DNA of 64,000 nt from Botryllus schlosseri (taxonomy: Eukaryota), in NCBI GenBank assembly GCA_051294905.1, contig CM119372.1, positions 3,970,001 to 4,034,000 on the forward strand, given 5' to 3'. Every line of letters starts with the position of its first letter. The first letter of the stretch is position 1. The position numbers and the translations under genes were made by a program. The notes under the pieces were generated by a model. The model was not told where the DNA came from. It did no database searches and saw only the letters and a program-made list of their open reading frames with translations. Positions 14,626-46,849 of the stretch are shown here, one piece after another.

Positions 14626-14806
14626 ATGAATGACCTCACTAAACTCATTCGGTACTTTGCGTTGTGTACTGAAATACCGGCATCACGTATAACCAAATGT
14701 ATCGGGTAATGGCAACCCGAAACTATCGTTATGCTAAACTATCTCTACTTTTGAAGCCTTTAATTTTATTCACATTTTACTAAGGCACCATAGTAGGGTT
14801 GTTGAG

Positions 14807-23492: not shown

Positions 23493-26400
23493 TCAACCGT
23501 TTTCTCTACCATTAGTAGTCGAATCAATAATTAACGAGCCTCTCGATCCACATCTCTCCCTTTCCGACGCCAATCCATCAATCGATGCGGACGGCTCGCC
23601 GTGGCTAATGCCGCTGTTTGATTTCGATAATGAAGAAGCGCTCGAGGAGTAGACGGAGGAGGCAGATAAAAACGTTGCTGATCTCGACAAGTTTCTACCC
23701 TCTAATATTGTCCTGATGAATTGATCGTAGTCCAGACGGCCATCGTTTCTTGTATCAGCGAATCTGATTATATCAAAGACCCAATGAAACCATGTCAATA
23801 CGATGTGAGTGGGTGCAGCGGGAATGCAACTCATGACCCTTATCCACGCCAATTAGCGTATAGGCAAAAGCGAGTAAAATGCGTCTTTGCAGCTCCAAAT
23901 TTTTACCTCCCCATTGCGACGTAATATGTATATGTTACGTCATTTTAAAAAATCTAGCTTACCCTATGTAGGCTATTCTATCGCACTTCTCGAACTCCTG
24001 TCCTGGTCCATAATATGTGTCTAGTCAAACTTTTAACGAATAGCCATGATAAAACCATTGACAAAAGTTTGTAATATAAACCGTACTAAATGTTTGGAAA
24101 TACTGGTGTTTTGCTCAACTGAAACAGACCAAATTCCCACATATGATCCTTACAGCATTGCGGGATCAGGTCCCATAGCATTTATTTCATTTAATAGAAA
24201 ATGGATATGTGTTTTCCAATAAAACTACTCAAAAATAACGAGAAGGAAGTCAAATGGGTATACGCCATCCTGAAAATTAAAAATCAAAAATACGAACAAT
24301 TTACAAATTTGAGTTGAACAATTTTTCCAATTATGACAGAACGTGTCGTCCAACATGCGAAATTCTAGGTTCGGACATGAATACACTCTGAGTTTTGATG
24401 ACATATCGATTTTCATGCGTGGGAATATATGTATTGTTTTCACGGTTAACTAATCCTGTTTGCTCCTATCGGACGACTAAAAAAAGGTAATCAACATTCA
24501 AGCTGCCCGCGCAACGGTTCGTAATCCCATGTGGCCCTTTGACCGAAAATGTTGGCCACCCCGGTTTTAGTCTAATCTTCTCGACACTCCAAGTACAGCC
24601 TACTATTTTGGTTAGTAGATGAGGCAAAAATGGGTAATGCATTCCAACAGTTCTCATGAACAGAGACGGCAGATTAACGTGTGTTCTTGGTGTCGCGGTT
24701 TCTTCGTGGATTTTCAATGTCACACATCCTTAAATTATAAGTCTTGAATGATTTGCGGGTCACGCTTAGTAGGACTGACAGCCTTCATGGAGTCGTTCTC
24801 GAGCCCAGTGCCGGTTGCTCAATATATCGAACCAGGTCTAGTCATGTCATGATAGAGACTACGCGCACCATCACCGAGGTGATGGAATCATCCATCGAAA
24901 AAAAAAGCATCAAAGATTGCTAATTACAGATTAAATTTCCCGTGATAGAGTGGTTTTGGAGAATATCCTGATGCCGGTGTTGTTCCGATTAATAACAATG
25001 TCAATCAGTGTTGCAGAGGGTTTTCGAATTAGGTGTGCAATGTGGTGCGATCAATGAATGATGAGAGGTCTTCGCAGTGCGACAAATTTCATGAAGATTT
25101 TCATCATGTCAAAAAAGTCAAAATTAGGTCAAAATTGTATCGTTAGGTCAAAAAATGTCACAATTCTTTACAAAGTTAAAACTTTTTTGCAACCTACGTT
25201 TCGTTTGTATCATAGATTTTGCACTGTCGGTGAACTTATCATTTGACATTTTACAGCTTGTAGCCTACTTTATAGGCCTACCGGTGTATACGGCCCATTG
25301 TCCGCTCATTGTGAATCATAAACATTCAAATGAAACAAATAGGTTGACATAGTGTTATTACATCCTCTATAGTGTTATGTTCAACGTACCGCAATATCTT
25401 AACTGAAGCAAGACTGCGTGGGCATTGCATGGTTCTTATATTAAGAAGCGCACGGTGAAAAATTGTGATGTATAGACACCATTGCCAGAATGAAGCAACA
25501 CGGTGTGTCACCAGCAGTGTACACACAACTACAGTGTTGCCAGCCAGCAACTGCTGCTGTTGGGCGTTCTTTCTCCATTCTTGGCAATCTACTTTGAAAG
25601 GACAGACACTTTCTATCCGAGAATGTAGGAAAGTATCCTTCGTTGTACTGCAAAAAAATCAATTATTTCTACCATAATGCGTAATGTATAGCTACTGGAA
25701 TACTTCATAGGTTCAGATTTCGTTAAAATAAAGTTATAAAGTTTTTTCATGTAACAATTTGTCAGTTTTAGAGGCACGAAAGTTTTTTAAAGGCCAAACT
25801 ACTTCGTAAGAACAGACAGTTACAGTTACATTATGTAGGAATCAGTGATGAGCGGATAGTGCTTTTCGAGACTCCGAATCCCTCCGACAACTTCAGCAGT
25901 GTCCGACGAAAACTCCATCCGACTCCGAAGATCTCAATCCCAGACTCCGAGATACTCTGAAGAATCTCGTCAAGTATCCGGAACATCATGACACTACAGA
26001 CACTACAGATACTACAGACACTGCTCAACGAAAATGCCTTGCTAGATCACTAGGTTAAGATAGCTCCTGGCCAATCATACCATTTTAACCATATCATTAG
26101 AGTGGCAAGCATACACTTGGTAATGTGTTTTTTTGCGCTCCGACTGTCATAAAATCGGCAAAACTCCGCTCCGAATACACTCCGACTCCGCTCCGATGCT
26201 CATCACTGGTAGGAATACACCTAATTTGCATACCTTAGGTCAAATTTGGTCAAAGTTAAGATTTTTAAGGTCAAAAAATGTCAAAGTTTTGATTTTGTAA
26301 GTCAAAATCTTCCGTTTTCAGGTCTAAAAAAATCGCCCTACTCATTAATAATTGTGAATGCATGATCTGTTCCCTTTCGAATATAGTCTCCATGAACCAT

Positions 26401-28943
26401 TTCGGGCAAAAATTGTATGTAGAAGTAGCAGACTTCCGTGGCGGTTCTTTGATTTTCCGTGAAAGACCATATACGCTACGCTACACAGCCATATGTGAGA
26501 CGACTTCTCACAAAAGTATTCGAAACATATTTTCTTGTATAAAGCCATATTCTGACGTTTCGAAGCATGTATTTATACGTCTATAAAGCTGCATAACCGA
26601 GCGGATCCTATTGTAAATTATATAGATTCCTACATTCGATTCTTTGTAATGAATGATACAGCCAAAATATTTGAAAGTTTTGACGTTTTCAATTGGATGA
26701 TTATGCAGGGAGAAGATTGAGGTAAATATCCGTTACGATAACCGTATTTCACAGACTAAATATATTGACGGAGCATTAACCTCCATTTCACGTACAATGA
26801 CATGTCATTTCCTTAGAGGATCAATTTGTTCTGTCGTGTATTTAAAAAAGCTGACTTTGAAATTAGTGTGTACCTATACCAGGGCCGGCCAACCCGTGGC
26901 CCGCGAGGTAATTTCCGAAATTTCTAATATCAAAAATGGATTGCACAGATTGTGAACTTGCAAGGCCAACCAAAAATTTGATTATCTAACTATAGTTTGG
27001 CCGCAACACTTGAGATGTGATGACTAAAATATCAGTTTCGACGCATTGACAGATCCATCAGCCAGTCACATATTGGTATATCTTCGTACACTACAATAAT
27101 GCAGAATAATTTGCGATAGATTTATCAAAAGTAAAAATTTTCTACAAGCTTAGCGCAACATGTTGTCACTCGATTTCTTGTTTTTAATATTGTTGCCCTT
27201 TTTGTGAAAATGGAAGAAAGCCTGATGTATCAGATTGAGTCTAACTATGTTCGCGAGGCAAATGCGACCTTACGTTTGCGCTCGCAGTAAGATCGTTGAC
27301 TATGAAACCTATAGGCTCGGAATGATTGACGCATGTTGGTCGCAGCTTTCGATATCGATATGTCCATGCGCCGAATAGCCCAGTCCTCGCAAACTTAGCC
27401 CAGCGATATACGGCAGGCCCGCAATATAGTCAAGTGACAATATTATTGACCTATGAACTTCAAAAATTTTTCGCGCTTGGCGCGGTAAGTGACCCGCTCA
27501 ATATTTCGTCAATCGAATGTGGCCCTTTGGCTGAAAAGGTTGGCCAGCCCTGACCTATACGATCACATTGATTCATGTAACATGTATTGCCGACGTCCGT
27601 GGACGCTTAACATTGACTACTTGCAAATGTAGGTCCAATCCTGGTCATATAGGTAGCTGACGAATACAGATGGCGAATATAGCTGACGAATACAGGTCTC
27701 AATCGCTAGGATATGTGAAAGATTTGGAGCGTTATCATATAGAAAGGGATATAGAGTCCCGAATATTATCCAAACAAACGAATCCGCATACCTTACTAGT
27801 TCATTAGCTTCCTTCAGGGTTATTGTGTTGCCCTGACTCATAAGTAGACTTAGAAGTTCATTGGCATTAACGTATCCCTTTTCTTCGACATCAAGACACA
27901 GAAAAGCGTCTCTGCAAAAGATGACATATATATGACATATCTGTGTACTCACGATCAAACCACATCATTGTGGTAGCCTATAGAACGGGCATTATGTTCT
28001 TTGTGGTCGAATAAAAGTCACAAATTTGAACATTCCATATCATTCATAATGTTGTGACGGTAAATCAGTGGTATTCGAATACTTGACTCGACTCGAACCC
28101 ATTCAGTATCGAATTACTCAAGTACTTGACAATGCAATTACAATGTCAGCCCACAGCCTCTAACCAAATATATCGGTGCCTGCAAGATTTACTTAATTGT
28201 TTTCTATGCCGGAACACACGCACTGTCATTTGCTAGCAGCGTCCCAGCAGCCCAAATTGGAAATCACTGTATATATTATTATATACTTACTTACCTAAGT
28301 TCCGCTTCCATGCCCTTTTCCTCTCGCATGTATTCCACAATCATACAAAACTCACTAAAATCCATCGTCATGTCACCATCCACTTCCATAAGGCAAGCCA
28401 GTTCGTGTATCTCTTCGTCCGTAGTTTTGTAGCCCAAAGCACCCAACGCCATGTTCAACTCACTGTAAGTAATTGTACAAGTACATGTACATTATACAAC
28501 TGTGCAATACCCACATTTAATTTGCGTCAAGGGAAATGTTAGATTACCTCATGTCCATTGTTTTGCTGCTATCAATATCATAGAATTCGAATATTTGTCT
28601 TAATTCGTCTAACTCCTCTGCATTGAAACTGCTCTGTCCTTTCATGCCGTAGGCTCTTTCTAGTCTTCTCCGGGCCTGGATGGAGGCAGTCTTGCGGTTG
28701 GGTCCGTAGTTGTCATCGAACGGTTGTTGCGCTCCTCTCGGCGCGTTCTTACTAGGAAAAATGTTACAGATATAGTTCCATACAGTTCTAGCATATGTCC
28801 GCCTATTTCTGTTAGCGATTCTATTTTTTATCCCATTAGACGAAGCCATATCGCTGATGGCATTCTGAGCCGAAAGCTTGTTTTTGTTCGAACTGGATTT
28901 GAAGAAATTATCTTGCAGGGAAAATGATGATGAAGACGAGTAT
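23493..28943 (-). CDS. Calmodulin/centrin-like 4-EF-hand protein with Ser-rich extensions; exons 28943(or ATG 28849)-28548, 28462-28295, 27911-27792, 23763-23493
   Basis: EF-hand loops DIDSSKTMDMSE, EVDGDMTMDFSE, DVEEKGYVNANE, DTRNDGRLDYDQ; all introns GT-AG, phase 2, frame conserved. Confidence 0.88.
25243..26340 (+). mobile_element. Second copy of the degraded hAT right end
   Basis: Similar to 20365-21313; same AAAAATCGCCCTA terminus and TAGGTCAAA subterminal repeats. Confidence 0.65.
25843..26208. mobile_element. hAT-type MITE with ACTCCG repeats
   Basis: TIR CAGTGATGAGC / GCTCATCACTG; exact TSD GTAGGAAT. Confidence 0.9.
26880..27552. mobile_element. hAT-type MITE
   Basis: TIR CAGGGC(C/T)GGCCAACC; exact TSD ACCTATAC. 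Confidence 0.88.
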
Positions 28944-29184
28944 CTGTACAGATCAATATTCGCTCGCCGTCATACATAGAATAAGTCATCAGACCATAAT
29001 AATACACGAGCCCTAATAAACAGTTCTTAGCGGATCAATAATGACGATTGAAACATCTTGATGTTTTAATTATCACCGCTGTGGGGCACATATAGATGCT
29101 TATTATTGCTAAATCATGACGTCGATAAGGGATGGTGCGAATACGGCAGTAGTTATGTAGATCGGTCGTGAGCGGCTATTGTTT

Positions 29185-29460
29185 CTTATGGCGGGGTGGC
29201 GATTCGCCTGGAAACCCGGGGTGGCGATTCGCCTCTTATCTCTTATGGCGGGGGTCGCGATTCGCCATGTGTTCTTATGGGTGCGGTCGTGATTCGCCTT
29301 TTCGGGTATAGGCCGCGGTCGTGATTCGCCGTGAAAACTCGTGGTCGTGACTCGCCTTTTTTGCTATAGGCGGTGGCGGCGATTCGCCTGTCGTGTATTC
29401 TTACGGGTTCTGTGGTGAGGTGCCATGTGTTCTTATGGATGCGGTCGTGATTCGCACTTT
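29185..29460. repeat. Subterminal GC-rich repeats (G(T/C)GATTCGCC core, ~30-bp spacing), mirrored at ~44550-44825
   Basis: About eight GATTCGCC-type motifs seen directly. Confidence 0.85.
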
Positions 29461-32400
29461 CAGGCATCTCTCGCGCGGTGTTGAATATGTACGAGTCACC
29501 AACAATAACCGCACAAACGGAAACGTGGCTTGTTGTGAGGATTAAGCAGTGCATACGTCCGTTTTGGAAATTCGGAGCGCGCACTATCGTATCGATTATT
29601 CCACTAATCCAGTAAGTACTATTACATACAGGAGTATTCAGTATTCAGCAACGACACGAAAAGCGACCAACAAATAACCGCACTCGTAAATTAACACCTA
29701 AAAAAGTGTAAAATAGATTGCAAATCCCGCGATCGCTAACAAGATAATGTCTCGGCTATAACCATTTAGTGACTTGGTGTTAAAGACATACCGATCGCTC
29801 ACAAGGTAATATTTCGGTAATTAGTTTGTCACAGAGCCGTCGCAGACGGTGATTCGAAAACCAACAATTTGACACTTTCTGGTGGTCGCTATATGTTTTG
29901 ACACTTCGAACAGCGGCTGACTTTAGTTGCACGATAAGAATCATGTGAATATACAAGTAATGTATCAATTTGTCAACTTGAAATGAAACTTACTACACAA
30001 ACCAAGTTGATTCGTATTTGAATGTGTTAATTCGGTACAATTCTAATTATTTTGAGAAATCTTTTGATTCGACCGTAACCTGAATATTACTGACGCCGAC
30101 TTTCAGCCGCATCGAATTATTCGCACATTCCGCGCCGCTGTTTTCACACTTATAGAATCAATACCAACTATAACTCTACAAGAATCAAGAATCACAAGTA
30201 TGTGCATTACACAGTTATTGTATTTATTAACTTGAAATCAAACTCTTAACAAAAACACGCAACTAATCATTTGCCAGCTCTAACATTATGAAAATCCTCG
30301 AGTCTTTATTTTTAAGAATGTTATAGTACGGTGTCGGAATCCATTCGTGGGATGTACTAAAGATAAATCCAGATAATTCAAAATGAAATATTTGGACTTT
30401 GACATAGTGTGAATTGAAATAGGATTGACAAACATGACTACCAACTTTGATCCAGTCACATTTCAAGATCATACTTCGAACCAAGTAATGTAACATTACA
30501 ACTCTATTCACGATCCTGCTTTCCGTTTGTCAAAGAGATATTTTAACATCTTACCATACTCAAAAGAATTATTCACAACATTAACAATTGTTAAAAATCT
30601 AGTTTTCACTTACTTGATTATATCACTGCAACTCATAAATTTGAATTAATTCATCCTGGTTGTATTCGTATGCTCGGTCTTTTTTATTCAATTGTAAAGG
30701 TCGTTACTATTCTGAAGACAAAGTAAGCTATTTACTAATCGACACATAAATGACTTGACATAAACATATTATATTTTGAGTACACGAGATTTGAATGTCT
30801 GAACAATAACTGAGAAATAATTTATCACAATAAAATCCGTATATTACAGCGTAAAAGATGTTTGAATGTCAGCAACTCTGTACGGTCATAGTTACTACCA
30901 CTAATTTACCCGACCAACTCGTCATGATCATTCCTGAAATCAACACAAATATGACCACTGACTTGAGTTAACCACAAAACAGCATCAAGTTTTAAATCCA
31001 CTTGTAGCTTACGGATTATTTGAATGCTGGTTATGTTTTGTTGTAATTGAGTTAACGGAAATAGTATTACGTCTCGACATCTTACCATCTTACCATATTC
31101 AAAGAATCAACCACGAAAACATTGTCAAGTAAATCCGTTACCCCGACCAACTCAAACAGTATCAGTATGAAAAACAGCCAAACATACACGAATCCATACA
31201 ATCACTAAAACCTAAAATCCATAACAAGCTTGGTTGTATTCAGATCCGTACACATCTTTTTTTATCCAGTTTGAAAAGTCGTAACTATTCTGTAAGATAG
31301 AGGAATTACTACTCGGTATATTTTGTAAGACCAAAAGTAATTACTTCTCAGTGTCGGCGACTTGAGATTAACATAATATGTTTGAGTATACGAGATTTGA
31401 CAGTCTGATCATCGTAGTTTCTTACAATCGAGCACAGGTGTGATATCAAAATTATCATGATGTAAACATAGGGATTGACACATTGATTTGACATATGAGA
31501 TTTTGTAATTGTTGATCGTTACTTTATTATTAATTGTTTGCGTTAATTAGACCCGGTGTTGTGGTAAATGTTATGACAGCAACAAACTTTTCAGTACCAA
31601 TGTTATTAACATATTAAGCTGTAAACTATGTGTGTCTGAAATGTTCTTGATAGGAAAATTACTCCACCTTGGTAAAAATCACTCTGCGTATCGCGGATAT
31701 CAGAAAATATTTCCAGTAACCAAGACTAAGACTTTGATTATTACAAAAGTAAATTGTGATATGTTTGTTAGATGCATCCAATTGAACTAGAAGTGTCTAG
31801 TGCCCAACACTCGTAATATCAAAAAAGTACTTGCTACACTGTAATTCACTTAACGTGTTTTGCATTGTTGTTCATTTGTAGTATTGATTGTTTTTGAACC
31901 TCCAAATAATAATTTCCGACATGAAACCAAACCGCCGAAAGTCGTTACCATCACAACGAAACAATTTGTACGATGTTTGTCAAATGTATCCTATAGTTAG
32001 GTGTACTAGAATCACTGGTCCAACACATACACCGAAAATGCAATCGAAATTTTCCCCATTGTCATTCGTCAAAGTAAAGGTCGTCACAATACTCAACCCA
32101 TAAAAGATCTTACTTGTATGTGATTGAATCGCAGGTAATTAACCCACTAAATCAAACCATAAGGAAATTTCACTCACTCATCGGATATGAAACAGCGTCA
32201 CTTAATCGGCGTAGATCGTTTTACTAAATGCAAATCATACCTGACCAACAGAAAACAATTTTCACTTACCTTGTAATGAAACCAAGTGGTGGGCCTTCGT
32301 TCAATATTTTGTCTGTGTCAAATACTTTGTAATAAACACAATGGAGTGGTTGAGCTTTACATCATCAAGCTGTCATTAATAAATCAAGATTTCGGTAAAC

Positions 32401-33924
32401 TTGTAAATGTATCGTTTAACTAACCGAGTTGTATGCACAGTTTGATATTTTTGTCATTTAGTGATTGCTGAACATACCACTTCGAAATACTGCGTTGATC
32501 TCAATCCCCTTTGTCCTGATAATCGAAGTACTTTTTGTTTTGAATTCATAACAATCGGATTTTCTATGACATGATAAATTAGAAGATTTAGAAGATTGGT
32601 TGCATATCACTAAAAATAATATACCACACATATTATTACTGTTACTCCATTCATCGGTATTTTTTCCGTTGTCGATTTTCAAACGAGTAAAATTTATTAC
32701 TTGAGTTGCTCTGCTTACTATATTTAAATGTAAACTCACCCGTCTTTCAACAACAAACAATGTTAAAAAGTATGCAATCAAACACAACAAGTTTTACGAT
32801 ACTAATTATTATCCCACATAACCCATTTCTTACCGAAGACATATGAAATATATTCATGTTACAAGAAAATATTCGCTCATGCTACAAACCTGTACAATGA
32901 TTGGTGGTGCTTTCAAACTGTTTCGATACCTCAAGAACTTTATCATCTGAATGGTTGTTCATGTATCGTAATAATCAAGTATTTCAACACAGAACTAGTA
33001 TTAACAGAAACACCAGAGTTGTTTACACAAAAGTTTGTGTGTGTACAGTATGCGAATACCATGTGTAAGTCCAGCACAATTGTGGTATCCATACGAGTTT
33101 AGTTAACACAATTTACGACACCGAGGTCGCCTCATCTTTCGTAAGACAACAAACCAAGGCTTCAGGATATGTCCATGTCATAACAATAAATCAGCTACTC
33201 CAACAACAGAGTACATACGTTTTCTAGTTACGGTGCTTACATCTTACACACAAATCGACCTACTTTGCAAACGAAAAGCGCTGAGTCATCACAACAATAC
33301 AACTAAAACATACTATCATACAAATTGGTCGTTATAGTTTACCCACCAACGATACATCGTACAAGTAGCAAGTCTCGAGAATCCAGTTTTTCAAAAAACG
33401 TGAAAGTGTTTCTACACCAAGTCGGTATGTTGACGAAAGCATATATTGTAATATCATGATCGATTTGCATTCGTTGGTCACAAACTGTCACTACTCTAAA
33501 TAATTATTTTTCACTCAAAGCATACTTATCGCCAATCGTTTTCATCAAGCACGAGTTCAAGAAACCTGCTGCGACATGAATTGTTATTTTTATGTTGTGT
33601 AAATAGGTAATAATTAATTTTAGTAACACTATATCAACATCATCGAGTTGTGCGAATAGATTTACATGTGGTCTTGTGGTTTTAATCGAAGTATACAGCA
33701 CGGTCTAATGTAGAGTCATCTCTATTGTACAACAACTCGGTAATCGAAATGCATTAAAATTTAAACAACGATCTTGGTTCGTCGCACCAAAAATATGTTT
33801 ACTATCACGATACTCTACACAGGCCGTGTAAATCCTTTTCACACTCGTAATAGTATACCAACAGCTACCGGCGACAACGTTTAACAATACCAACGACACT
33901 AAACATACGATACCTACCCAAGTA

Positions 33925-34625
33925 AAATTTCCATTTTCACCTGGAGATCGGTCGTAACCCAAGTAGAAATACCATTGTCCTTTGGAGATTTATCGTTTAC
34001 CCAGTGTAACAAACCCCTTTTCCTTTGGTAATCTATTTTTCTCTGGGTAACAATCCTTTTTCACTTGGAAATATATTTTTTCTCTGGTTAACAATCCTTT
34101 TTCACTTGGAAATATATTTTTTCTCTGGTTAACAATCCTTTTTCACTTGGAAATATATTTTTTCACTGGGTAACAAACCTTTTTCACTTGGAAATATATT
34201 TTTTCTCTGGTTAACAAACCTTTTTAACTTGGAAATATATTTTTTCTCTGGGTAACAAACGTTTTTCACTTGGAAATATATTTTTTCCCTGGGTAACAAT
34301 CCTTTTTTTCTCTTGGTAATAAACCTTTTTCACTTGGAAATATATTTTTTCTCTGAGTAACAAACCTTTTTCACTTGGAAATATATTTTTTCTATGGGTA
34401 ACAAACCTTTTTCACTTGGAAATATATTTTTTCTCTTGGTAATAAACCTTTTTCACTTGGAAATATATTTTTTCTCTGGATAACAAACCATTTTCACTTG
34501 GCGGGTCGTCGTTTACCTTAGTAAAAATATCATTTTCCTTTGGAGATCCGGCGTTTACCCAGGGTAACAATACATTTTCTCTTGGCCATCTAGCTTTTCC
34601 CACAGTAACAAAATCATTTTCATTT
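33925..34625. repeat. 41-bp tandem array (two ~20-21-bp subunits), mirrored at ~36962-37662
   Basis: GGGTAACAA(T/A)CCTTTTTCACTTGGAAATATATTTTTTCTCT at 34045, 34086, 34127 etc., decaying at both edges. Confidence 0.92.
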
Positions 34626-37600
34626 TGAAATCTGACAATTTGATATTTTTGTATATTGTTACAACAGATAGCGACAAAATATACACCAACAACAACTCCA
34701 ATACATTTGTGTAATCGCATATTCACTTGTGCTGATGCAACCCATCAAAATCATCGGTTACCCACATGCAATGTGCTGTTGTACATCGACGTTTATGTTT
34801 TTGGAAAATTGGACAATAGGCTTCGATAGTTCTGTGATGTCCGGGCTCGTGCTTTGGATTTTCCAGAGTCAAAATGTCTGAATAAAACACCTCCTTGACG
34901 ATGGTTGGTATGTGGATAACGGTGTTCGGAAAACGATTGGATTTATGTCACCCATCGCGATAACAATTCCAGGTCGAGTTTTCCCCCGCGTGTTTACTAT
35001 ATTGTGTCTTTATTGGTCATGTATGTCTCGACATTCAGTTTGAAATCGGAAACCCTGATAAAGTATGTAACCGGATCCGGATATCAACTCTGAATCGATA
35101 AACCAATGAACAATATTCAAAGTAAACATGTTACACCCTGTGTTTCCACGAAAAAATACCATCCAGACATACGTCGCGCTTGTTTGCCCACATCAGTATA
35201 CGCATAAATGGAGGTGTGTGACATTGCATGCAATGTGTTGGTATACAAACATCGATCCACAGACATTATCATAGCCGGTAGTTTTGATGTAGATCGAATG
35301 TCATCACACCCGATAACAATACCAATAAGCCACATTGCAATGACTCTGAGTCAATCTGAAGCATGACATACAGACACACAAACATGGAACCCTAACATGG
35401 GTTATTCACACGACGGTGAAAGTGAACCATACAGCATATACCAATAGGGCGTTCACAGTCGAATATGCGAACCATGCACAATCATATACCCTGGTTTTTG
35501 TTGGATATGTACGAAACCAATAAATCGATACATTTCTGTTCCTTCTACGTCAATAATACAAGCGTCATTCCAATGCATCGCTCGAATGTAAGGTTCGTCG
35601 GGTGTAAAATCCATGTCAAATAACACCAAAGTGTGCTTTCCGTGTTTTATTATTTCCACCGACGCTTCTTGTCTGTGTCGTAACACTATGGTGCGGGGAG
35701 TTGAAAAACGGTGGATTGTGAAACGGATTGACATGACCAACTGAATCGACGTCAATAGACTTGTGATGACAGTTTCAAAATGATACCGATCTCTTGTGGT
35801 GATGACCGTTTCGAAATGTAACCGGACGAACTGAATCCTTACGATGATGTGTTTTATGATTGCGTGTGAAATCACGAGGTAGTGTTCTATTGTGGTGTAC
35901 GATTGCAGTCTTCATTCCACAGAAACATACCTTATTGGATCACAATATCAGTCCGACATTTGCACGATATTTATCCGGAGTCGTTATGTGGGAGTAGCGA
36001 CATCCATTGATCGTGACTGAAAGACTGATCGCAATCATTTCGAGCACCGTACTTCGATAGTTCACCTAGAACAAACGCTGCAGCAGAAAACTTCGGTGTC
36101 GACAACACGATGGATATTGACCGATGTATCCAATTGATCTGGGTGGTCCGTCTACAGATAGGGTCATGACTATCTTGCGATAAAACCATCGAGTAAATCA
36201 ATGAACGGTGTCGAAATAGCGATGTAATAGCGCAGACTCAGAGTCATTGCAATGTGGCTTATTGGTATTGTTATCGGGTGTGATGACATTCGATCTACAT
36301 CAAAACTACCGGCTATGATAATGTCTGTGGATCGATGTTTGTATACCAACACATTGCATGCAATGTCACACACCTCCATTTATGCGTATACTGATGTGGG
36401 CAAACAAGCGCGACGTATGTCTGGATGGTATTTTTTCGTGGAAACACAGGGTGTAACATGTTTACTTTGAATATTGTTCATTGGTTTATCGATTCAGAGT
36501 TGATATCCGGATCCGGTTACATACTTTATCAGGGTTTCCGATTTCAAACTGAATGTCGAGACATACATGACCAATAAAGACACAATATAGTAAACACGCG
36601 GGGGAAAACTCGACCTGGAATTGTTATCGCGATGGGTGACATAAATCCAATCGTTTTCCGAACACCGTTATCCACATACCAACCATCGTCAAGGAGGTGT
36701 TTTATTCAGACATTTTGACTCTGGAAAATCCAAAGCACGAGCCCGGACATCACAGAACTATCGAAGCCTATTGTCCAATTTTCCAAAAACATAAACGTCG
36801 ATGTACAACAGCACATTGCATGTGGGTAACCGATGATTTTGATGGGTTGCATCAGCACAAGTGAATATGCGATTACACAAATGTATTGGAGTTGTTGTTG
36901 GTGTATATTTTGTCGCTATCTGTTGTAACAATATACAAAAATATCAAATTGTCAGATTTCAAAATGAAAATGATTTTGTTACTGTGGGAAAAGCTAGATG
37001 GCCAAGAGAAAATGTATTGTTACCCTGGGTAAACGCCGGATCTCCAAAGGAAAATGATATTTTTACTAAGGTAAACGACGACCCGCCAAGTGAAAATGGT
37101 TTGTTATCCAGAGAAAAAATATATTTCCAAGTGAAAAAGGTTTATTACCAAGAGAAAAAATATATTTCCAAGTGAAAAAGGTTTGTTACCCATAGAAAAA
37201 ATATATTTCCAAGTGAAAAAGGTTTGTTACTCAGAGAAAAAATATATTTCCAAGTGAAAAAGGTTTATTACCAAGAGAAAAAAAGGATTGTTACCCAGGG
37301 AAAAAATATATTTCCAAGTGAAAAACGTTTGTTACCCAGAGAAAAAATATATTTCCAAGTTAAAAAGGTTTGTTAACCAGAGAAAAAATATATTTCCAAG
37401 TGAAAAAGGTTTGTTACCCAGTGAAAAAATATATTTCCAAGTGAAAAAGGATTGTTAACCAGAGAAAAAATATATTTCCAAGTGAAAAAGGATTGTTAAC
37501 CAGAGAAAAAATATATTTCCAAGTGAAAAAGGATTGTTACCCAGAGAAAAATAGATTACCAAAGGAAAAGGGGTTTGTTACACTGGGTAAACGATAAATC

Positions 37601-39981
37601 TCCAAAGGACAATGGTATTTCTACTTGGGTTACGACCGATCTCCAGGTGAAAATGGAAATTTTACTTGGGTAGGTATCGTATGTTTAGTGTCGTTGGTAT
37701 TGTTAAACGTTGTCGCCGGTAGCTGTTGGTATACTATTACGAGTGTGAAAAGGATTTACACGGCCTGTGTAGAGTATCGTGATAGTAAACATATTTTTGG
37801 TGCGACGAACCAAGATCGTTGTTTAAATTTTAATGCATTTCGATTACCGAGTTGTTGTACAATAGAGATGACTCTACATTAGACCGTGCTGTATACTTCG
37901 ATTAAAACCACAAGACCACATGTAAATCTATTCGCACAACTCGATGATGTTGATATAGTGTTACTAAAATTAATTATTACCTATTTACACAACATAAAAA
38001 TAACAATTCATGTCGCAGCAGGTTTCTTGAACTCGTGCTTGATGAAAACGATTGGCGATAAGTATGCTTTGAGTGAAAAATAATTATTTAGAGTAGTGAC
38101 AGTTTGTGACCAACGAATGCAAATCGATCATGATATTACAATATATGCTTTCGTCAACATACCGACTTGGTGTAGAAACACTTTCACGTTTTTTGAAAAA
38201 CTGGATTCTCGAGACTTGCTACTTGTACGATGTATCGTTGGTGGGTAAACTATAACGACCAATTTGTATGATAGTATGTTTGAGTTGTATTGTTGTGATG
38301 ACTCAGCGCTTTTCGTTTGCAAAGTAGGTCGATTTGTGTGTAAGATGTAAGCACCGTAACTAGAAAACGTATGTACTCTGTTGTTGGAGTAGCTGATTTA
38401 TTGTTATGACATGGACATATCCTGAAGCCTTGGTTTGTTGTCTTACGAAAGATGAGGCGACCTCGGTGTCGTAAATTGTGTTAACTAAACTCGTATGGAT
38501 ACCACAATTGTGCTGGACTTACACATGGTATTCGCATACTGTACACACACAAACTTTTGTGTAAACAACTCTGGTGTTTCTGTTAATACTAGTTCTGTGT
38601 TGAAATACTTGATTATTACGATACATGAACAACCATTCAGATGATAAAGTTCTTGAGGTATCGAAACAGTTTGAAAGCACCACCAATCATTGTACAGGTT
38701 TGTAGCATGAGCGAATATTTTCTTGTAACATGAATATATTTCATATGTCTTCGGTAAGAAATGGGTTATGTGGGATAATAATTAGTATCGTAAAACTTGT
38801 TGTGTTTGATTGCATACTTTTTAACATTGTTTGTTGTTGAAAGACGGGTGAGTTTACATTTAAATATAGTAAGCAGAGCAACTCAAGTAATAAATTTTAC
38901 TCGTTTGAAAATCGACAACGGAAAAAATACCGATGAATGGAGTAACAGTAATAATATGTGTGGTATATTATTTTTAGTGATATGCAACCAATCTTCTAAA
39001 TCTTCTAATTTATCATGTCATAGAAAATCCGATTGTTATGAATTCAAAACAAAAAGTACTTCGATTATCAGGACAAAGGGGATTGAGATCAACGCAGTAT
39101 TTCGAAGTGGTATGTTCAGCAATCACTAAATGACAAAAATATCAAACTGTGCATACAACTCGGTTAGTTAAACGATACATTTACAAGTTTACCGAAATCT
39201 TGATTTATTAATGACAGCTTGATGATGTAAAGCTCAACCACTCCATTGTGTTTATTACAAAGTATTTGACACAGACAAAATATTGAACGAAGGCCCACCA
39301 CTTGGTTTCATTACAAGGTAAGTGAAAATTGTTTTCTGTTGGTCAGGTATGATTTGCATTTAGTAAAACGATCTACGCCGATTAAGTGACGCTGTTTCAT
39401 ATCCGATGAGTGAGTGAAATTTCCTTATGGTTTGATTTAGTGGGTTAATTACCTGCGATTCAATCACATACAAGTAAGATCTTTTATGGGTTGAGTATTG
39501 TGACGACCTTTACTTTGACGAATGACAATGGGGAAAATTTCGATTGCATTTTCGGTGTATGTGTTGGACCAGTGATTCTAGTACACCTAACTATAGGATA
39601 CATTTGACAAACATCGTACAAATTGTTTCGTTGTGATGGTAACGACTTTCGGCGGTTTGGTTTCATGTCGGAAATTATTATTTGGAGGTTCAAAAACAAT
39701 CAATACTACAAATGAACAACAATGCAAAACACGTTAAGTGAATTACAGTGTAGCAAGTACTTTTTTGATATTACGAGTGTTGGGCACTAGACACTTCTAG
39801 TTCAATTGGATGCATCTAACAAACATATCACAATTTACTTTTGTAATAATCAAAGTCTTAGTCTTGGTTACTGGAAATATTTTCTGATATCCGCGATACG
39901 CAGAGTGATTTTTACCAAGGTGGAGTAATTTTCCTATCAAGAACATTTCAGACACACATAGTTTACAGCTTAATATGTTAA

Positions 39982-42400
39982 CCCGATCGAAACGGCCGGC
40001 CTCAAGTCCAAATTTCAATGCATTTAGTAAAATGTTCATAAAATCTGAACCACGGGAGTTGAACCGACACCCAATATATCGCTGTAATCGTGAAACAGCC
40101 GCCTAACCAACTGAGCTACTCTCAAAGCGAGAGAGAAACAGGTGATGCCCCTATACCAAGAAGTGTTCTCAACTTTTAGAAAATAAAAGAGAATTTGATT
40201 TTTGAATTTGCGACTACGTCATACAAAGACCTGCTCGGGATAGAATCATCGCCTGACTGATTTCGCAAGGATATCAGGATTCTAAAATGACCTGAGTGAG
40301 GTTCTTACGATAATACAATCGAGAGTAACGACCGCTGATATAGCGATGGCTACAGTTGGATATAGCGCGATTGATGCCAGGCGTCTCGCATTCGGCGCAC
40401 ATACACGCGCCGTGAGTTATTCTAGTATCGACGACGTTCAATGATTCATTTCACCGCGCCGGTGTATATATTAGCTTTGTACGAGTTACTAAGTACTAGA
40501 TAGTGCTTTGTCGAAACACACCTTGCTCTTGTACAACAACTAGAACTGAATATATAGTGGTTGGATTGACAGGTAGTCATACCTGCAATATAAAATACAG
40601 TGTTTCACTGATATTTTACTGGGCATTTGAAAAAAGATTAGGTCATATTATGCAAGCCTTTTATCGATAATCGTGATGTACACAATCGCTTTGAGACAAG
40701 GGCTGTCTATTGAACAAATAGGCATTTTGAAAACCCAGTGTTCACGACATGCGCACCGCAGCAATCAGCTTCGAAGTGCACAACTCGACCGCTGACTCTA
40801 CACACCTATTTTATTCGCTAATTTGACAATGGACATTGGACATTCAGCCATATTTTGCTTTTGTTCTCTACCATGGGCCAGATCTGAAACATTTTCACCA
40901 GAAGTGAAGCCATTTACGGACATAACTTTGCTGTCATATCGATTGCGCGTTGGAGATCTTGTAGCTCGTTGCACATATCATGCTGGTAATGCTGTATTAG
41001 TATAAAAAGCAGCAATCGATATGCGTAATCTGTAACAGCGAATCTGCGCTAATCACAACAGCAAATATATTACCGCGTGTTATTGTTTGGGTAATAACAT
41101 AGTATCGCGGACGTTCAAATGATTCATTTCACTACGTCGGTATATGTAATCGCTTGTCTATCCTTTGTACGAGTTAGTGCCATGTGTTGAAACTAACATT
41201 GCTGTTGTACAACACGCGCATCGCAGCAATCAGTTTCGAAGTGCGTTCGTGACCGCAGACTCTACATACCTCGATCCGCTAAATTGAAAATCGACATTCA
41301 ACCATATTTTTGTAAAAGAATTTATTGCATGGCGCAATATATCATGAAATAATGCACCACGTGTGTAATGCAATAGCAAATCGAAATAATAACAAACCAG
41401 CACATCTAGCACCAACACATGGAAAAACGTAAGAAACCATTATAGCATTGGCAACTGAAGTTATTGCAATTATATTCGTTGCCCACACTGCAATGATAAT
41501 AGGTCAACTGCTTTGACAGAGTTACGCCGAATTTTCTTGCCTCTCTCGTGAATCATGGACGAATAAAATACTTTGAATCAAGAAAGTGCATTGATTAGAT
41601 GGAACCGGGATTTGATGCCTGGCTTTGCTGGTCGTCAAATTTTCATAAATGACCTGCGCGTTGTGGACGGAAATCTCGAGCAGACACGAAAATACTTTTC
41701 AATACCAGAATCGCGACCGGAGCATTGATGTGCCGGTGCATTTCTTTTTATTCGCTACTACGGGAAAGACGTGAAACATTTCCACCAGAAGTGAAGCCAT
41801 TTACGGACATAAATTTGCTGTCATATCAATAGCGGAGATCTTGTAGCTCGCTGAAGAACATCATGGCAGTATTGGTGTATTAGTATGAATAGCAAAAATA
41901 TTCAATATGCGTAATCTTCAACAGCAACAGAAAATACATTGCTAAAACCCGCGCATGTTATTTCGTAACATAATTTTACTTCCAGTTCGAAGAATCTTCT
42001 GTGCGACTAATTTTTGATTATAAGTATTCCAATAGATGGGCAATGGGCATAACCAGCACATGTTAGGAGAAAAGATCTGCAAATGAATTTGATGTCTCGG
42101 AGATGCGCTGATTTAGGTCACGGGCGCTGGTTTATCTCACGCGCGCACATTCACGCGAACGTCGTGGCGAATTGTATTTTGCGCAAAACGTTTTTATGTA
42201 TTCAATCTGCATTTTGAACAGGCTATTCGATAGTATAAGATGTTATTTATGGCTCGACGTATGCGTATTGATAATAGCTATCCATCTGTAATAGTTGTAA
42301 TTGTCTACGACCAGAACAACCCAGGAAATTTTGGATTAAGTAAAGCGTGTTCGTGAAAATACGCTCAGTAATCATTAATGAGTGTGCCGTTTCGATCGGG
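39982..42400 (-). mobile_element. piggyBac-like non-autonomous element (2419 bp) in the right arm
   Basis: Perfect 15-bp TIR CCCGATCGAAACGGC; TTAA duplicated (39978-39981, 42401-42404); single empty TTAA at 31606-31609 in the left arm. Confidence 0.93.
40043..40126 (-). ncRNA. tRNA-like Pol III unit, homolog of 5612-5694
   Basis: Minus strand: TAGCTCAGTTGG A box, GCTGT/ACAGC stem, GGTTCAACTCCC B box, TTTT downstream. Confidence 0.6.
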
Positions 42401-44896
42401 TTAATAACATTGGTACTGAAAAGTTTGTTGCTGTCATAACATTTACCACAACACCGGGTCTAATTAACGCAAACAATTAATAATAAAGTAACGATCAACA
42501 ATTACAAAATCTCATATGTCAAATCAATGTGTCAATCCCTATGTTTACATCATGATAATTTTGATATCACACCTGTGCTCGATTGTAAGAAACTACGATG
42601 ATCAGACTGTCAAATCTCGTATACTCAAACATATTATGTTAATCTCAAGTCGCCGACACTGAGAAGTAATTACTTTTGGTCTTACAAAATATACCGAGTA
42701 GTAATTCCTCTATCTTACAGAATAGTTACGACTTTTCAAACTGGATAAAAAAAGATGTGTACGGATCTGAATACAACCAAGCTTGTTATGGATTTTAGGT
42801 TTTAGTGATTGTATGGATTCGTGTATGTTTGGCTGTTTTTCATACTGATACTGTTTGAGTTGGTCGGGGTAACGGATTTACTTGACAATGTTTTCGTGGT
42901 TGATTCTTTGAATATGGTAAGATGGTAAGATGTCGAGACGTAATACTATTTCCGTTAACTCAATTACAACAAAACATAACCAGCATTCAAATAATCCGTA
43001 AGCTACAAGTGGATTTAAAACTTGATGCTGTTTTGTGGTTAACTCAAGTCAGTGGTCATATTTGTGTTGATTTCAGGAATGATCATGACGAGTTGGTCGG
43101 GTAAATTAGTGGTAGTAACTATGACCGTACAGAGTTGCTGACATTCAAACATCTTTTACGCTGTAATATACGGATTTTATTGTGATAAATTATTTCTCAG
43201 TTATTGTTCAGACATTCAAATCTCGTGTACTCAAAATATAATATGTTTATGTCAAGTCATTTATGTGTCGATTAGTAAATAGCTTACTTTGTCTTCAGAA
43301 TAGTAACGACCTTTACAATTGAATAAAAAAGACCGAGCATACGAATACAACCAGGATGAATTAATTCAAATTTATGAGTTGCAGTGATATAATCAAGTAA
43401 GTGAAAACTAGATTTTTAACAATTGTTAATGTTGTGAATAATTCTTTTGAGTATGGTAAGATGTTAAAATATCTCTTTGACAAACGGAAAGCAGGATCGT
43501 GAATAGAGTTGTAATGTTACATTACTTGGTTCGAAGTATGATCTTGAAATGTGACTGGATCAAAGTTGGTAGTCATGTTTGTCAATCCTATTTCAATTCA
43601 CACTATGTCAAAGTCCAAATATTTCATTTTGAATTATCTGGATTTATCTTTAGTACATCCCACGAATGGATTCCGACACCGTACTATAACATTCTTAAAA
43701 ATAAAGACTCGAGGATTTTCATAATGTTAGAGCTGGCAAATGATTAGTTGCGTGTTTTTGTTAAGAGTTTGATTTCAAGTTAATAAATACAATAACTGTG
43801 TAATGCACATACTTGTGATTCTTGATTCTTGTAGAGTTATAGTTGGTATTGATTCTATAAGTGTGAAAACAGCGGCGCGGAATGTGCGAATAATTCGATG
43901 CGGCTGAAAGTCGGCGTCAGTAATATTCAGGTTACGGTCGAATCAAAAGATTTCTCAAAATAATTAGAATTGTACCGAATTAACACATTCAAATACGAAT
44001 CAACTTGGTTTGTGTAGTAAGTTTCATTTCAAGTTGACAAATTGATACATTACTTGTATATTCACATGATTCTTATCGTGCAACTAAAGTCAGCCGCTGT
44101 TCGAAGTGTCAAAACATATAGCGACCACCAGAAAGTGTCAAATTGTTGGTTTTCGAATCACCGTCTGCGACGGCTCTGTGACAAACTAATTACCGAAATA
44201 TTACCTTGTGAGCGATCGGTATGTCTTTAACACCAAGTCACTAAATGGTTATAGCCGAGACATTATCTTGTTAGCGATCGCGGGATTTGCAATCTATTTT
44301 ACACTTTTTTAGGTGTTAATTTACGAGTGCGGTTATTTGTTGGTCGCTTTTCGTGTCGTTGCTGAATACTGAATACTCCTGTATGTAATAGTACTTACTG
44401 GATTAGTGGAATAATCGATACGATAGTGCGCGCTCCGAATTTCCAAAACGGACGTATGCACTGCTTAATCCTCACAACAAGCCACGTTTCCGTTTGTGCG
44501 GTTATTGTTGGTGACTCGTACATATTCAACACCGCGCGAGAGATGCCTGAAAGTGCGAATCACGACCGCATCCATAAGAACACATGGCACCTCACCACAG
44601 AACCCGTAAGAATACACGACAGGCGAATCGCCGCCACCGCCTATAGCAAAAAAGGCGAGTCACGACCACGAGTTTTCACGGCGAATCACGACCGCGGCCT
44701 ATACCCGAAAAGGCGAATCACGACCGCACCCATAAGAACACATGGCGAATCGCGACCCCCGCCATAAGAGATAAGAGGCGAATCGCCACCCCGGGTTTCC
44801 AGGCGAATCGCCACCCCGCCATAAGAAACAATAGCCGCTCACGACCGATCTACATAACTACTTACGGCACATAAAATTGTACCGAGGAACTCTTAC

Positions 44897-44940
44897 TCTG
44901 TCTTAGAAGAGTTTTCTCTGCTGCAAATCGACCCATGCAT
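44897..44940 (-). CDS. Candidate first coding exon of the EF-hand gene (MHGSICSRENSSKT-E)
   Basis: ATG plus 44 nt ending in phase 2 at a GTAAGA donor; joins in frame to the CAG acceptor at 28944 and the open frame upstream of ATG 28849. Confidence 0.5.
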
Positions 44941-46849
44941 GTAGGCCTACTTGTTTCGCTGTCGGTGGCAATTTAGTGTCCATTTCTGCACTAGATTTCT
45001 GTTGATAATGCATTGCATATTGGCCTACCTGCAGTGTTATTCAACGTTTTTTCGGATTATGATATTAAGATAAAAAGCAAATGAAAATTGGATATAGATC
45101 GATACTGAGAAAACGTAAATTCCACATTTTCGATTGGGACATGGAATCTGGAGTTCTGGTTACACACAAATCCAGCATATTGGCTATGCACAGGGAACTC
45201 GGAGTGCGGAGTGCGGATGCGGAATGCGGAGATGCGAGATGGATATAAACGTGTTATTTGGAATTACGATAAGAAGAGGATCTATGATTTGCATTTGAAG
45301 TTTTAAAATGGACCATGATTTGGATTTGGTGCCGTCTCGAATTCGACCGCAGTCAGGATGCAAATTCTGCAGCTACAATTTTTATAATTTATTGCTGCCT
45401 AATGTGGAAAACCAAGCCCATGTATCTTCCACTGCAAAACTTTGTCGCTATGCAATCAATCTGAATGTACTTAATTTCTTGCATTGAGTCGGTTAATCAT
45501 CGGAAGTTTTGTCACAAATTGTCAAGTAAGAAAGTGGCAGGGAGGCAGAATACGTTTGTGTTATATGGCAATCGATTCCGTATGCATCGATAAATCTATA
45601 AGTCATTATCATAACGATCCAAATGCAGCGTAATCGATCTAATCATCGCATTCATTATAGTGGGGTGTTCTTTGACGAATCTCACCCAGTTCAAACAGGT
45701 GCTATTGAACACCCCGGAGGTGTGGTCGTGCACCCGTTAAGATCCTTCTCCGTTTACAGGTGTGTTTTAGCAATTATCACTCAACACTTTGAAGTGAAAT
45801 TGGGAAAATATGCACCCAAAACGTGTATGGACTGCAAACCTAATCGTTCACGTGGTTGAGTGTGGTGTATGGTTGCATTTAAAACAAACATGTTTAAAAC
45901 AATGCCCTTGCTCAAATCGTGTTTTTTATTGTGTTTTTTAAGCCATGACGTCTCGAATATTCTGTTGTGACGTCATGATGGATTTACATTGACAATTGAA
46001 AATATAGGGTAAATATAGCTCCTTTGACGAAATATCTATACTATTGCTGTTGAACTGACTATTTTGAGGGTTCCAGACATCCCGTATCGATATACGTCGG
46101 CTATATCGGGTAGCTGTCCGTAGGCTCATACAACATGTTTTTTGGAAAGTATTTACACGACCATGGCATAACTTCACGACCTATTTTTTTTAAATAGGCC
46201 TTTGTTTAAAACGCTGTTTAAAGCATGATTTAAACAAAGTGTTTTAAAACACCGTTTGTTTTAAATGCAACCCTAGCGGTGTAGTGCCATGAAGCAACAA
46301 TTATTCCGTGAATCCTCAATAATGATATTTTTAAAAACTGATATAAATGCTGCTGTACTCACGAGAGAGGAGCGAACAGATCGAACTCCAAAAGCTGAAA
46401 ATTTTCCATAAGGATGTCACAGGATAACGTGGATTATGAATGGAATTTTAATATTTCCGTTATGGGAGTCACGAAATGCAATCAAATTTGCAGGCTTTGC
46501 ATATATGACCTACAAAAGTCATATACTATATAAATATATACTTAATACGAATGCATGAATAAAAATATGTAGAATGGCGACAGAGCAGCTATAGTTACAT
46601 ACACGGCGGTATAGTTGCGAGCGGAGGCGATGTTAGGAAGACAAATTTGGGTGGGCCGCTTTGCTCAATGACAGTTATAACTATAGCATATATAGAGCAG
46701 GGAAAATTAAAGTATAGGTCGCGAAGGGTGTAAATTTGGGTCGAGACCTTCCCAGAGCGATCTTTTATTATATATTGTATATCTGCTGAATTTCTTGCAG
46801 CAACTATACTTCTTCACGCGATCTCCTGTGGCTGGTTTGTACAATGTAC

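What the first reader, a model, noticed from the sequence alone, without database searches (positions are those of the whole stretch)
28944..44940. The palindromic element appears to sit in intron 1 of the EF-hand gene, predicting a multi-kb dsRNA hairpin in a host pre-mRNA
Seen: a 44-nt ATG exon (44940-44897) with a GTAAGA donor joins in frame to an acceptor at 28944. Removing the element and one TSD leaves a 232-bp intron, against 15,953 bp now; the insertion is ~30 bp from the donor. Inference: read-through transcription would give a 6.2-kb stem, a substrate for Dicer or ADAR and a possible small-RNA source against the Polinton family. Folding would also bring donor and acceptor back together, so splicing might survive.
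Basis: inference. Interest (0 to 1): 0.8.

Follow-up and report, generated by a model that had tools for sequence, protein, structure and literature searches.

The report
Giant palindromic transposon inside host intron
A 15.7-kb jumping element built as a near-perfect mirror image of itself recently landed in an intron of a sea-squirt calcium-binding gene, so the gene's unspliced RNA could fold into a very long double strand, but this is one of roughly a thousand such copies and no RNA evidence for the fold or its effects was obtained.

Summary
The coordinates check out. The element (29148-44862) has AGTAGT ends and a 6-bp target-site duplication. Its 6.2-kb arms differ at 1 base, but one arm is broken by a 2.4-kb piggyBac-like insert. 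The Styela clava ortholog's first exon matches 46409-46363 (score 48, best shuffle 27), and all its isoforms join at the acceptor homologous to 28752. The homology-supported intron is therefore 17,611 nt (1,890 empty), not 15,953 (232). The element belongs to a family of about 930-1,170 palindromes, about 2.7% of the genome, with a selected 93-aa loop gene. The scan had already noted this family and gene on other DNA. Folding, editing, siRNA production and splice rescue remain untested: two RNA runs had no reads on exons 2-4. Most likely this is a young, functionless insertion whose RNA is spliced out, edited or cut short.

The parts
46363..46409 (-). Conserved upstream coding exon of the host EF-hand gene (15 codons + 2 nt, GTGAGT donor, phase 2)
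   Evidence: Matches the first exon of S. clava isoform P0001. End-anchored score 48; next best 16 among 3,890 minus-strand donors; shuffle maximum 27, 0 of 300 reach it
44897..44940 (-).
   Evidence: Sequence; no homology to 4 ortholog N-termini; in frame with both acceptors
44863..44868 (.). 6-bp target-site duplication, right copy
29148..44862 (.). Whole element, 15,715 bp, AGTAGT...ACTACT termini, no polymerase, integrase or capsid ORF
   Evidence: no stop-free frame over 152 aa inside it
42401..44862 (.). Right arm, outer part (pairs with 29148-31609)
   Evidence: 100% over 2,463 bp
39982..42400 (.). Nested 2,419-bp non-coding piggyBac-like insert (CCC...GGG short TIRs, TTAA duplication) in one arm only
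   Evidence: the piggyBac label comes from recalled end rules
36235..39981 (.). Right arm, inner part (pairs with 31606-35352)
   Evidence: 99.97% over 3,747 bp, single mismatch at 33305
35353..36234 (.). 882-bp unpaired loop, conserved across the family
35453..35734 (-). 93-aa loop ORF on the host gene's strand; family unknown
   Evidence: Intact in 19 of 21 subfamily-A loops; dN/dS 0.33 against subfamily B; no Pfam, Atlas or outside homolog
35009..35014 (-). AATAAA downstream of the loop ORF; candidate poly(A) signal that could end read-through early in the second arm
   Evidence: Present in 20 of 21 copies, but the arms are 97.9% alike, so this is not evidence of selection
29148..35352 (.). 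Left arm, 6,205 bp, with short subterminal repeats and a 41-bp tandem array near 34006-34501
29142..29147 (.). 6-bp target-site duplication, left copy
28752..28943 (-).
28548..28751 (-). Conserved exon 2 (acceptor TTTTTCCTAG at 28752)
   Evidence: 66-67% identity to S. clava proteins, whose isoforms all converge here
28295..28462 (-). Exon 3 (EF-hand)
   Evidence: 77% to the ortholog
27792..27911 (-). Exon 4 (EF-hand)
   Evidence: Pfam EF-hand below cut-off, E 0.0014; 61% to the ortholog
23493..23763 (-). Exon 5 (EF-hand and tail to the stop)

Best explanation
SHOWN: a young copy of a very abundant non-autonomous element sits 1,500 nt downstream of a conserved upstream exon (46409-46363) and 396 nt upstream of conserved exon 2 of a single-copy calmodulin/centrin-like gene in an ascidian. 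It has Polinton/Maverick-type ends and terminal inverted repeats that make up almost its whole length. It turns a 1.9-kb intron into 17.6 kb, and a piggyBac-like element later entered one arm. INFERRED: the family is moved in trans by Polinton proteins, and its replication or repair copies one arm onto the other, which keeps the arms identical within a copy while copies diverge. INFERRED: when the upstream promoter fires, Pol II either reads through or stops at one of 17 AATAAA sites. If it reads through, the intron folds into two stems of 2.5 and 3.7 kb, is probably hyper-edited by ADAR in the nucleus, and is spliced out and degraded. Isoforms from a downstream start would not be affected. 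The hairpin is a by-product of the element's DNA architecture, not a selected host function, and this locus adds little to a dsRNA pool that hundreds of other copies could also feed.
For: Element anatomy and TSD. Exon homology on both sides. Host region single-copy in the assembly. Family size: 1,175 + 1,159 terminal motifs against 3 + 3 for the control; 40 pairs among the first 100 listed, median 14.6 kb. The longest arm block is 99.0-99.9% identical within 10 of 10 fetched copies, but mostly 75-97% to the window's arm. TSD 6/6 in 7 of 11 copies and 5/6 in 2 more. The (AGT)2//(ACT)2 ends and 6-bp TSD match the published Maverick signature (PMC8097293, passages). Arms mismatch at 0.34% against 0.89% private substitutions in the loop, with 19 private variants in both arms and 16 in one. 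ADAR-family deaminase domains at 4 loci. Intronic inverted repeats are ordinary ADAR substrates in C. elegans (PMC4282642, passages).
Against: No RNA read supports any junction or read-through here. I found no Polinton polymerase or capsid gene in the genome; both controls were blank, so these searches show nothing either way, and the helper is known only from unchecked scan notes. In 2 of 11 copies the flanks are mirrored rather than duplicated, so the assembly may over-homogenise palindromes. In Ciona savignyi repeats are barely transcribed and give only 13-24% of editing sites (PMC9989829, passages). PF02137 also covers ADAT1 and ADAD (recalled), so not all 4 loci need be ADARs.
Confidence: 0.68

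Rival explanations
1. A species-specific first exon (44940-44897) splices to 28943 or to 28751. The element sits 34 nt from its donor, and fold-back brings the splice sites within 232-430 nt of each other.
For: In-frame join and good donor. It is the only such mini-exon in the 1.5 kb upstream of the element. There are 73 open codons upstream of the conserved acceptor, p about 0.012. Two variants in another individual's contig leave that frame open (N>D and silent). The ortholog has at least 5 alternative N-termini, and the window has lost the ortholog's internal Met.
Against: No homology for the exon or the extension. The 28944 acceptor has 7 of 14 pyrimidines against 10 of 14 at 28752. No reads.
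Confidence: 0.25
2. The insertion knocks out the upstream-promoter isoform: transcripts end inside the element (poly(A) sites, loop-gene 3' end, silencing) and no long hairpin forms. The allele is a rare, mildly deleterious polymorphism, buffered by downstream starts.
For: 17 AATAAA on the host strand inside the element, 12 of them before the loop. The loop ORF and its candidate poly(A) signal lie on the host strand. The element end has less RNA per unit DNA (2.0 and 0.9) than 4 other repeat bins (2.5-27); this is weak because it is a 153-bp edge bin. One mismatch in 6.2 kb suggests a recent insertion.
Against: AATAAA is common in AT-rich introns and is usually ignored (general knowledge). No expression data from carriers.
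Confidence: 0.35
3. The intronic hairpin is diced and is a meaningful trans-acting small-RNA source against the family.
For: A perfect multi-kb stem is a formal Dicer substrate, and the arms share 75-97% identity with other copies.
Against: No small-RNA data. About a thousand palindromic copies make this locus redundant. The host gene had no exon 2-4 reads in 2 of 2 RNA runs. In C. elegans ADARs antagonise RNAi on self dsRNA (PMC5859968, title, abstract and section headings only). The arms carry no Polinton core gene, so siRNAs could reach helper elements only through shared ends, which I did not test.
Confidence: 0.1
4. The element is a foldback (FB/Galileo-like) cut-and-paste transposon rather than a Polinton derivative.
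For: Very long TIRs with internal tandem arrays and no Polinton gene. An earlier scan note raises the same alternative.
Against: The (AGT)2 ends with a 6-bp TSD are the Maverick signature. FB/Galileo TSDs are 7-9 bp (recalled). Arms are renewed within each copy.
Confidence: 0.12
5. The palindrome is an assembly artefact.
For: Near-perfect arms; mirrored flanks in 2 of 11 other copies.
Against: Distinct flanks with an exact TSD, collinear exons of one gene on both sides, an insert in one arm only, and a conserved loop in at least 40 copies.
Confidence: 0.03

Closest known systems
Maverick/Polinton elements (PMC8097293, passages read; Kapitonov and Jurka 2006 not held, recalled)
   Same: 5'-(AGT)2//(ACT)2-3' end motif, 6-bp TSD, terminal inverted repeats, length about 15 kb.
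   Different: No pPolB, integrase, ATPase, protease or capsid gene. TIRs are 6.2 kb, about 93% of the element without the nested insert (the C. elegans TIR is 744 bp). About a thousand copies. One small unrelated loop gene.
C. elegans eri-6/7: Polinton TIR-derived repeats that pair pre-mRNAs for splicing (bioRxiv 10.1101/2024.01.15.575659, passages read)
   Same: Polinton TIR sequence lies inside a host gene, and RNA pairing through it bears on splicing.
   Different: There the repeats are about 930 bp, direct in DNA, and drive trans-splicing of two transcripts, shown by experiment. Here there is one cis intron, a 6.2-kb fold-back and no RNA evidence.
Intronic inverted repeats as ADAR/dsRNA substrates (PMC4282642 and PMC9989829, passages read)
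   Same: A transposon-derived inverted repeat in an intron is predicted to form intramolecular dsRNA; about 25% of expressed worm genes have one.
   Different: Scale and perfection: 6.2 kb at 99.98% from a single element.
Foldback transposons (Drosophila FB, Galileo; recalled)
   Same: Non-coding very long TIRs with internal tandem repeats and a central loop.
   Different: End motif and TSD length are Maverick-like, and no transposase was found.
Styela clava LOC120342103 (calmodulin/caltractin-like)
   Same: Ortholog of the host gene: 57-77% identity over exons 2-5, the same exon-2 entry point, and a homologous upstream exon.
   Different: The window lacks the Met at the start of exon 2 and has a shorter C-terminal tail. 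The ortholog's intron length could not be obtained.

Membership tests
Maverick/Polinton (autonomous) | (AGT)2//(ACT)2 or (AG)3//(CT)3 termini | tested here: met
   definition
Maverick/Polinton (autonomous) | 6-bp target-site duplication | tested here: met
   6/6 in the window; 7 of 11 copies exact, 2 with one mismatch, 2 with mirrored flanks
Maverick/Polinton (autonomous) | Terminal inverted repeats | tested here: met
   6.2 kb, far longer than usual
Maverick/Polinton (autonomous) | Encodes pPolB and a retroviral-like integrase, usually with ATPase, protease and capsids | tested here: not met
   No frame over 152 aa in the window's element; no such ORF recognised among the frames of 110 aa or more listed for 10 other copies (read by eye) or in the core of a 20.8-kb copy
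Non-autonomous Polinton derivative | An autonomous helper with matching ends in the same genome | tested here: inconclusive
   PF03175 and PF21738 searches were blank with blank controls; unchecked scan notes report Polintons here
Non-autonomous Polinton derivative | Transposes as a unit (many loci with their own TSDs) | tested here: met
Intronic hairpin RNA (ADAR/Dicer substrate) | Both arms inside one intron of a host gene | tested here: met
   Conserved exons at 46409-46363 and 28751-28548; shown by homology, not by transcripts
Intronic hairpin RNA (ADAR/Dicer substrate) | Transcribed through both arms | tested here: inconclusive
Intronic hairpin RNA (ADAR/Dicer substrate) | A-to-I clusters or siRNAs over the arms but not the loop | not testable with these tools
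   No small-RNA runs were listed, and reads from near-identical repeats cannot be placed
piggyBac (nested insert) | TTAA duplication and CCC...GGG TIR ends | tested here: met
   defining features recalled; no transposase, so non-autonomous

The most novel reading that the evidence does not exclude
The family is a class of minimal Polinton satellites whose near-total palindromy makes them almost invisible to splicing. A 14-kb insert folds out of the pre-mRNA as one stem, so host introns tolerate it. This helps about a thousand copies (about 2.7% of the genome) accumulate, and gives this ascidian many host pre-mRNAs with multi-kilobase perfect dsRNA that its editing and antiviral sensors must handle. 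The selected 93-aa loop protein may be part of that accommodation.
Probability: 0.15. Interest if true: 0.78.

Novelty: new variant of a known kind. Interest (0 to 1): 0.42.

Why it matters
A transposon in an intron that can form dsRNA is ordinary; the scale here is not. A polymorphic 6.2-kb, 99.98% perfect stem in a single-copy gene with defined flanking exons would be a clean natural test. It could show whether the spliceosome crosses a 15.7-kb insert more easily when it folds, and whether such self dsRNA is edited, diced or sensed in a chordate. The family itself (Maverick ends, no core genes, arms renewed within each copy, one orphan gene) did not appear in 4 literature searches on Polinton, palindromic or tunicate elements (one search returned only general tunicate papers). 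Those cover open-access papers only and not Repbase. The scan had already recorded the family elsewhere in this genome.

Tried and rejected
RNA test of the junction (window 23200-29300; runs X5, X6, X18, X22). The raw RNA runs, of which about 6% and 13% were read, had zero depth in the bins covering exons 2-4; X18 had 0.52 over exon 5. The joint and loose-end tables were filled by unrelated repeats (15 of 250 joints and 24 of 1,969 loose ends shown), so neither a splice junction nor an empty allele could be read: no verdict; no RNA holder listed. Empty allele or haplotig in the assembly: none, 1 match; the search with the upstream flank failed and was not repeated. Other S. clava first exons (P0002, P0004, P0006): best scores 14-18, not above chance; P0010 was too short to test. 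Polinton core genes: blank with blank controls. Loop ORF: no Pfam hit, Atlas blank, no longer relatives, none in viral or metagenome contigs. The only real hit, P0019, is this genome's own subfamily; the other 4 hits were long repeat-rich proteins matched over 26-49 residues and were set aside. AlphaFold gave pLDDT 39, so no fold search was run. A strand-biased mutation pattern in the loop, expected if it is single-stranded during replication, was not seen (G>A 31, C>T 26). dN/dS within subfamily A is 0.82, close to neutral (20 sequences after dropping 6 overlapping duplicates and 2 broken copies). The core of a 20.8-kb copy held nested inserts, not genes; two other long copies could not be examined. 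Kapitonov and Jurka 2006 was not held. No supplements were read.
Full report
OBSERVATION. Self-comparison of the window gives two inverted blocks: 29148-31610 with 42400-44862 (2,463 bp, 100%) and 31606-35352 with 36235-39981 (3,747 bp, one mismatch). The element runs 29148-44862 (15,715 bp), starts AGTAGT, ends ACTACT, and has an identical 6-bp duplication on both sides. The gap in the right arm is a 2,419-bp insert with short CCC...GGG TIRs and a TTAA duplication, present in that arm only; I call it piggyBac-like from recalled end rules. The loop is 882 bp. The stem is two stems with a 2.4-kb bulge, not one.

HOST GENE. Exon 2 finds three proteins: two Styela clava clusters (LOC120342103, named calmodulin-, caltractin- or CDPK-like) and one unnamed. 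The host is therefore an ascidian (496 Mb, 219 contigs). The 17 S. clava records have five different N-termini, all converging on the same peptide at the start of exon 2. One of those N-termini aligns with window 46409-46363 on the same strand, followed directly by a phase-2 GTGAGT donor that joins 28751 in frame. Its end-anchored score is 48; the next best of 3,890 minus-strand donors is 16, and the best of 300 shuffles is 27. So exons of one gene flank the element in order: it is intronic. The homology-supported intron is 46362-28752: 17,611 nt now and 1,890 nt empty, with the element 1,500 nt from the donor and 396 nt from the acceptor. The region is single-copy in the assembly, with no empty allele.

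It matches none of four ortholog N-termini, and neither does the 64-residue extension of exon 2. It is not refuted. It is the only open ATG-to-GTRAG phase-2 candidate in the 1.5 kb before the element, and it is in frame with both acceptors. The frame upstream of the conserved acceptor is open for 73 codons (1.2% of 10,352 local intron positions), and two variants in another individual's contig keep it open. There is also an in-frame ATG at 28849, so a transcript starting downstream of the element is possible.

RNA. I laid two contig sets and two raw RNA runs on 23200-29300. The RNA runs had no depth over exons 2-4, and the junction tables were dominated by other repeats, so splicing, read-through and editing are untested. 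The last bin, holding the element end, has 2.0 and 0.9 RNA units per DNA unit against 2.5-27 for four other repeat bins. That hints at low transcription of the family's ends but is weak.

THE FAMILY. The terminal motif occurs 1,175 times forward and 1,159 times reverse, against 3 and 3 for the control. Among the first 100 listed there are 40 facing pairs, median 14.6 kb; extrapolated, that is about 930 paired elements and 2.7% of the genome. All 10 copies fetched are giant palindromes whose longest arm block is 99.0-99.9% identical, while their arms are mostly 75-97% identical to the window's. TSDs are exact in 7 of 11 (window included), one-off in 2, and replaced by mirrored flanks in 2, a warning that some palindromes may be mis-assembled. 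In 21 subfamily-A copies the loop carries 0.89% private substitutions, the inner arms mismatch at 0.34%, and 19 private arm variants occur in both arms against 16 in one. Unlinked neutral decay would predict about 1.8% mismatch. Copying between arms, at replication or afterwards, is the likeliest reason; unsampled source copies and assembly polishing are alternatives. The loop holds a 93-aa ORF (35734-35453, host strand), intact in 19 of 21. It is 64% identical to a second subfamily, with dN/dS 0.33 between subfamilies and 0.82 within A. A third version (P0019) has 150 scored matches among 1,194 candidates in this genome. No outside homolog or fold was found. No Polinton core gene is in the element, and genome searches for pPolB and capsid were uninformative. 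After this work I consulted the scan's notes, which already describe the family, the loop gene and autonomous Polintons on other DNA of this genome. Nothing was noted near this window.

MECHANISM. Shown: architecture, mobility as a unit, intronic position. Inferred: mobilisation by a Polinton helper, and arm-to-arm copying. For the RNA, a read-through transcript would pair with about -4,500 and -6,700 kcal/mol, leaving about 1.9 kb of unpaired host intron between the conserved splice sites. It must first pass 17 AATAAA on its strand, including one 440 nt downstream of the loop ORF that is present in 20 of 21 copies. ADAR-family deaminase domains exist at four loci; Dicer was not searched. I rate read-through with folding in at least some transcripts at about 0.5, loss of the upstream isoform at about 0.35, and a meaningful siRNA role at about 0.1. 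These are judgements.

LITERATURE. PMC8097293 (passages): (AGT)2//(ACT)2 ends and 6-bp TSDs mark vertebrate Mavericks. bioRxiv 10.1101/2024.01.15.575659 (passages): Polinton TIR-derived repeats mediate trans-splicing at eri-6/7, the closest case of Polinton repeats shaping host splicing. PMC4282642 (passages): about 25% of expressed worm genes have an intronic inverted repeat, and over 90% of editing is in introns and 3' UTRs. PMC9989829 (passages): Ciona savignyi edits in clusters, but its repeats are barely transcribed. PMC5859968 (abstract and headings): ADARs antagonise RNAi on self dsRNA. PMC6431247 (passages) and PMC12448946 (passages; it notes only gene-scale palindromes) do not describe such elements in the passages seen. 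Searches listed no description of giant-TIR non-autonomous Polintons; they cover open-access papers only, and no supplements were read.

VERDICT. The element is real, intronic and one member of an unusual, very large family. The gene model needs correcting. The dsRNA consequences are a reasonable but untested prediction, of a kind already known at smaller scale. New variant of a known kind; interest 0.42.

Noticed in passing
L049-L051 (G000:C4 and C3): A second family of multi-kb palindromes shares the loop-ORF cassette (P0019 type, in both arms). It has a short conserved central loop of about 45 nt, and many copies carry an intact Bcl-2-like ORF (Pfam Bcl-2, E 3e-21; 150 scored of 417 candidates). 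An earlier scan note reports it.
   Followed up: partly
G000:C1:16768420-16810257: Three family members appear nested inside one another (matching terminal variants in A-B-C-C-B-A order), which suggests insertion into its own copies.
   Followed up: no
L015-L016 and L023-L024: Two copies are inserted into retroelement-like ORFs, read by eye from translations.
   Followed up: no
L025-L028: In two copies the palindrome continues into mirrored flanks with no TSD: palindrome extension or mis-assembly.
   Followed up: partly
L009-L010 and L017-L018: Two copies have a 332-bp loop that lacks the 93-aa ORF, so the gene may be dispensable in cis.
   Followed up: no
window 7080-8003 and 11854-12837 (-): Two Harbinger-type DDE_Tnp_4 transposase ORFs.
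   Followed up: no
window 14738-16297 (+): 519-aa frame with two BED zinc fingers and a weak BTB match.
   Followed up: no
window 4358-5744: Diverged relative (73-78%) of the piggyBac-like insert.
   Followed up: no
window 35735-36234 (-): Upstream of the loop ORF there are donor-like and acceptor-like sites, and a short stretch conserved with the P0019-type cassette. This may be a 5' intron of the loop gene and a possible trap for the host's upstream exon.
   Followed up: no
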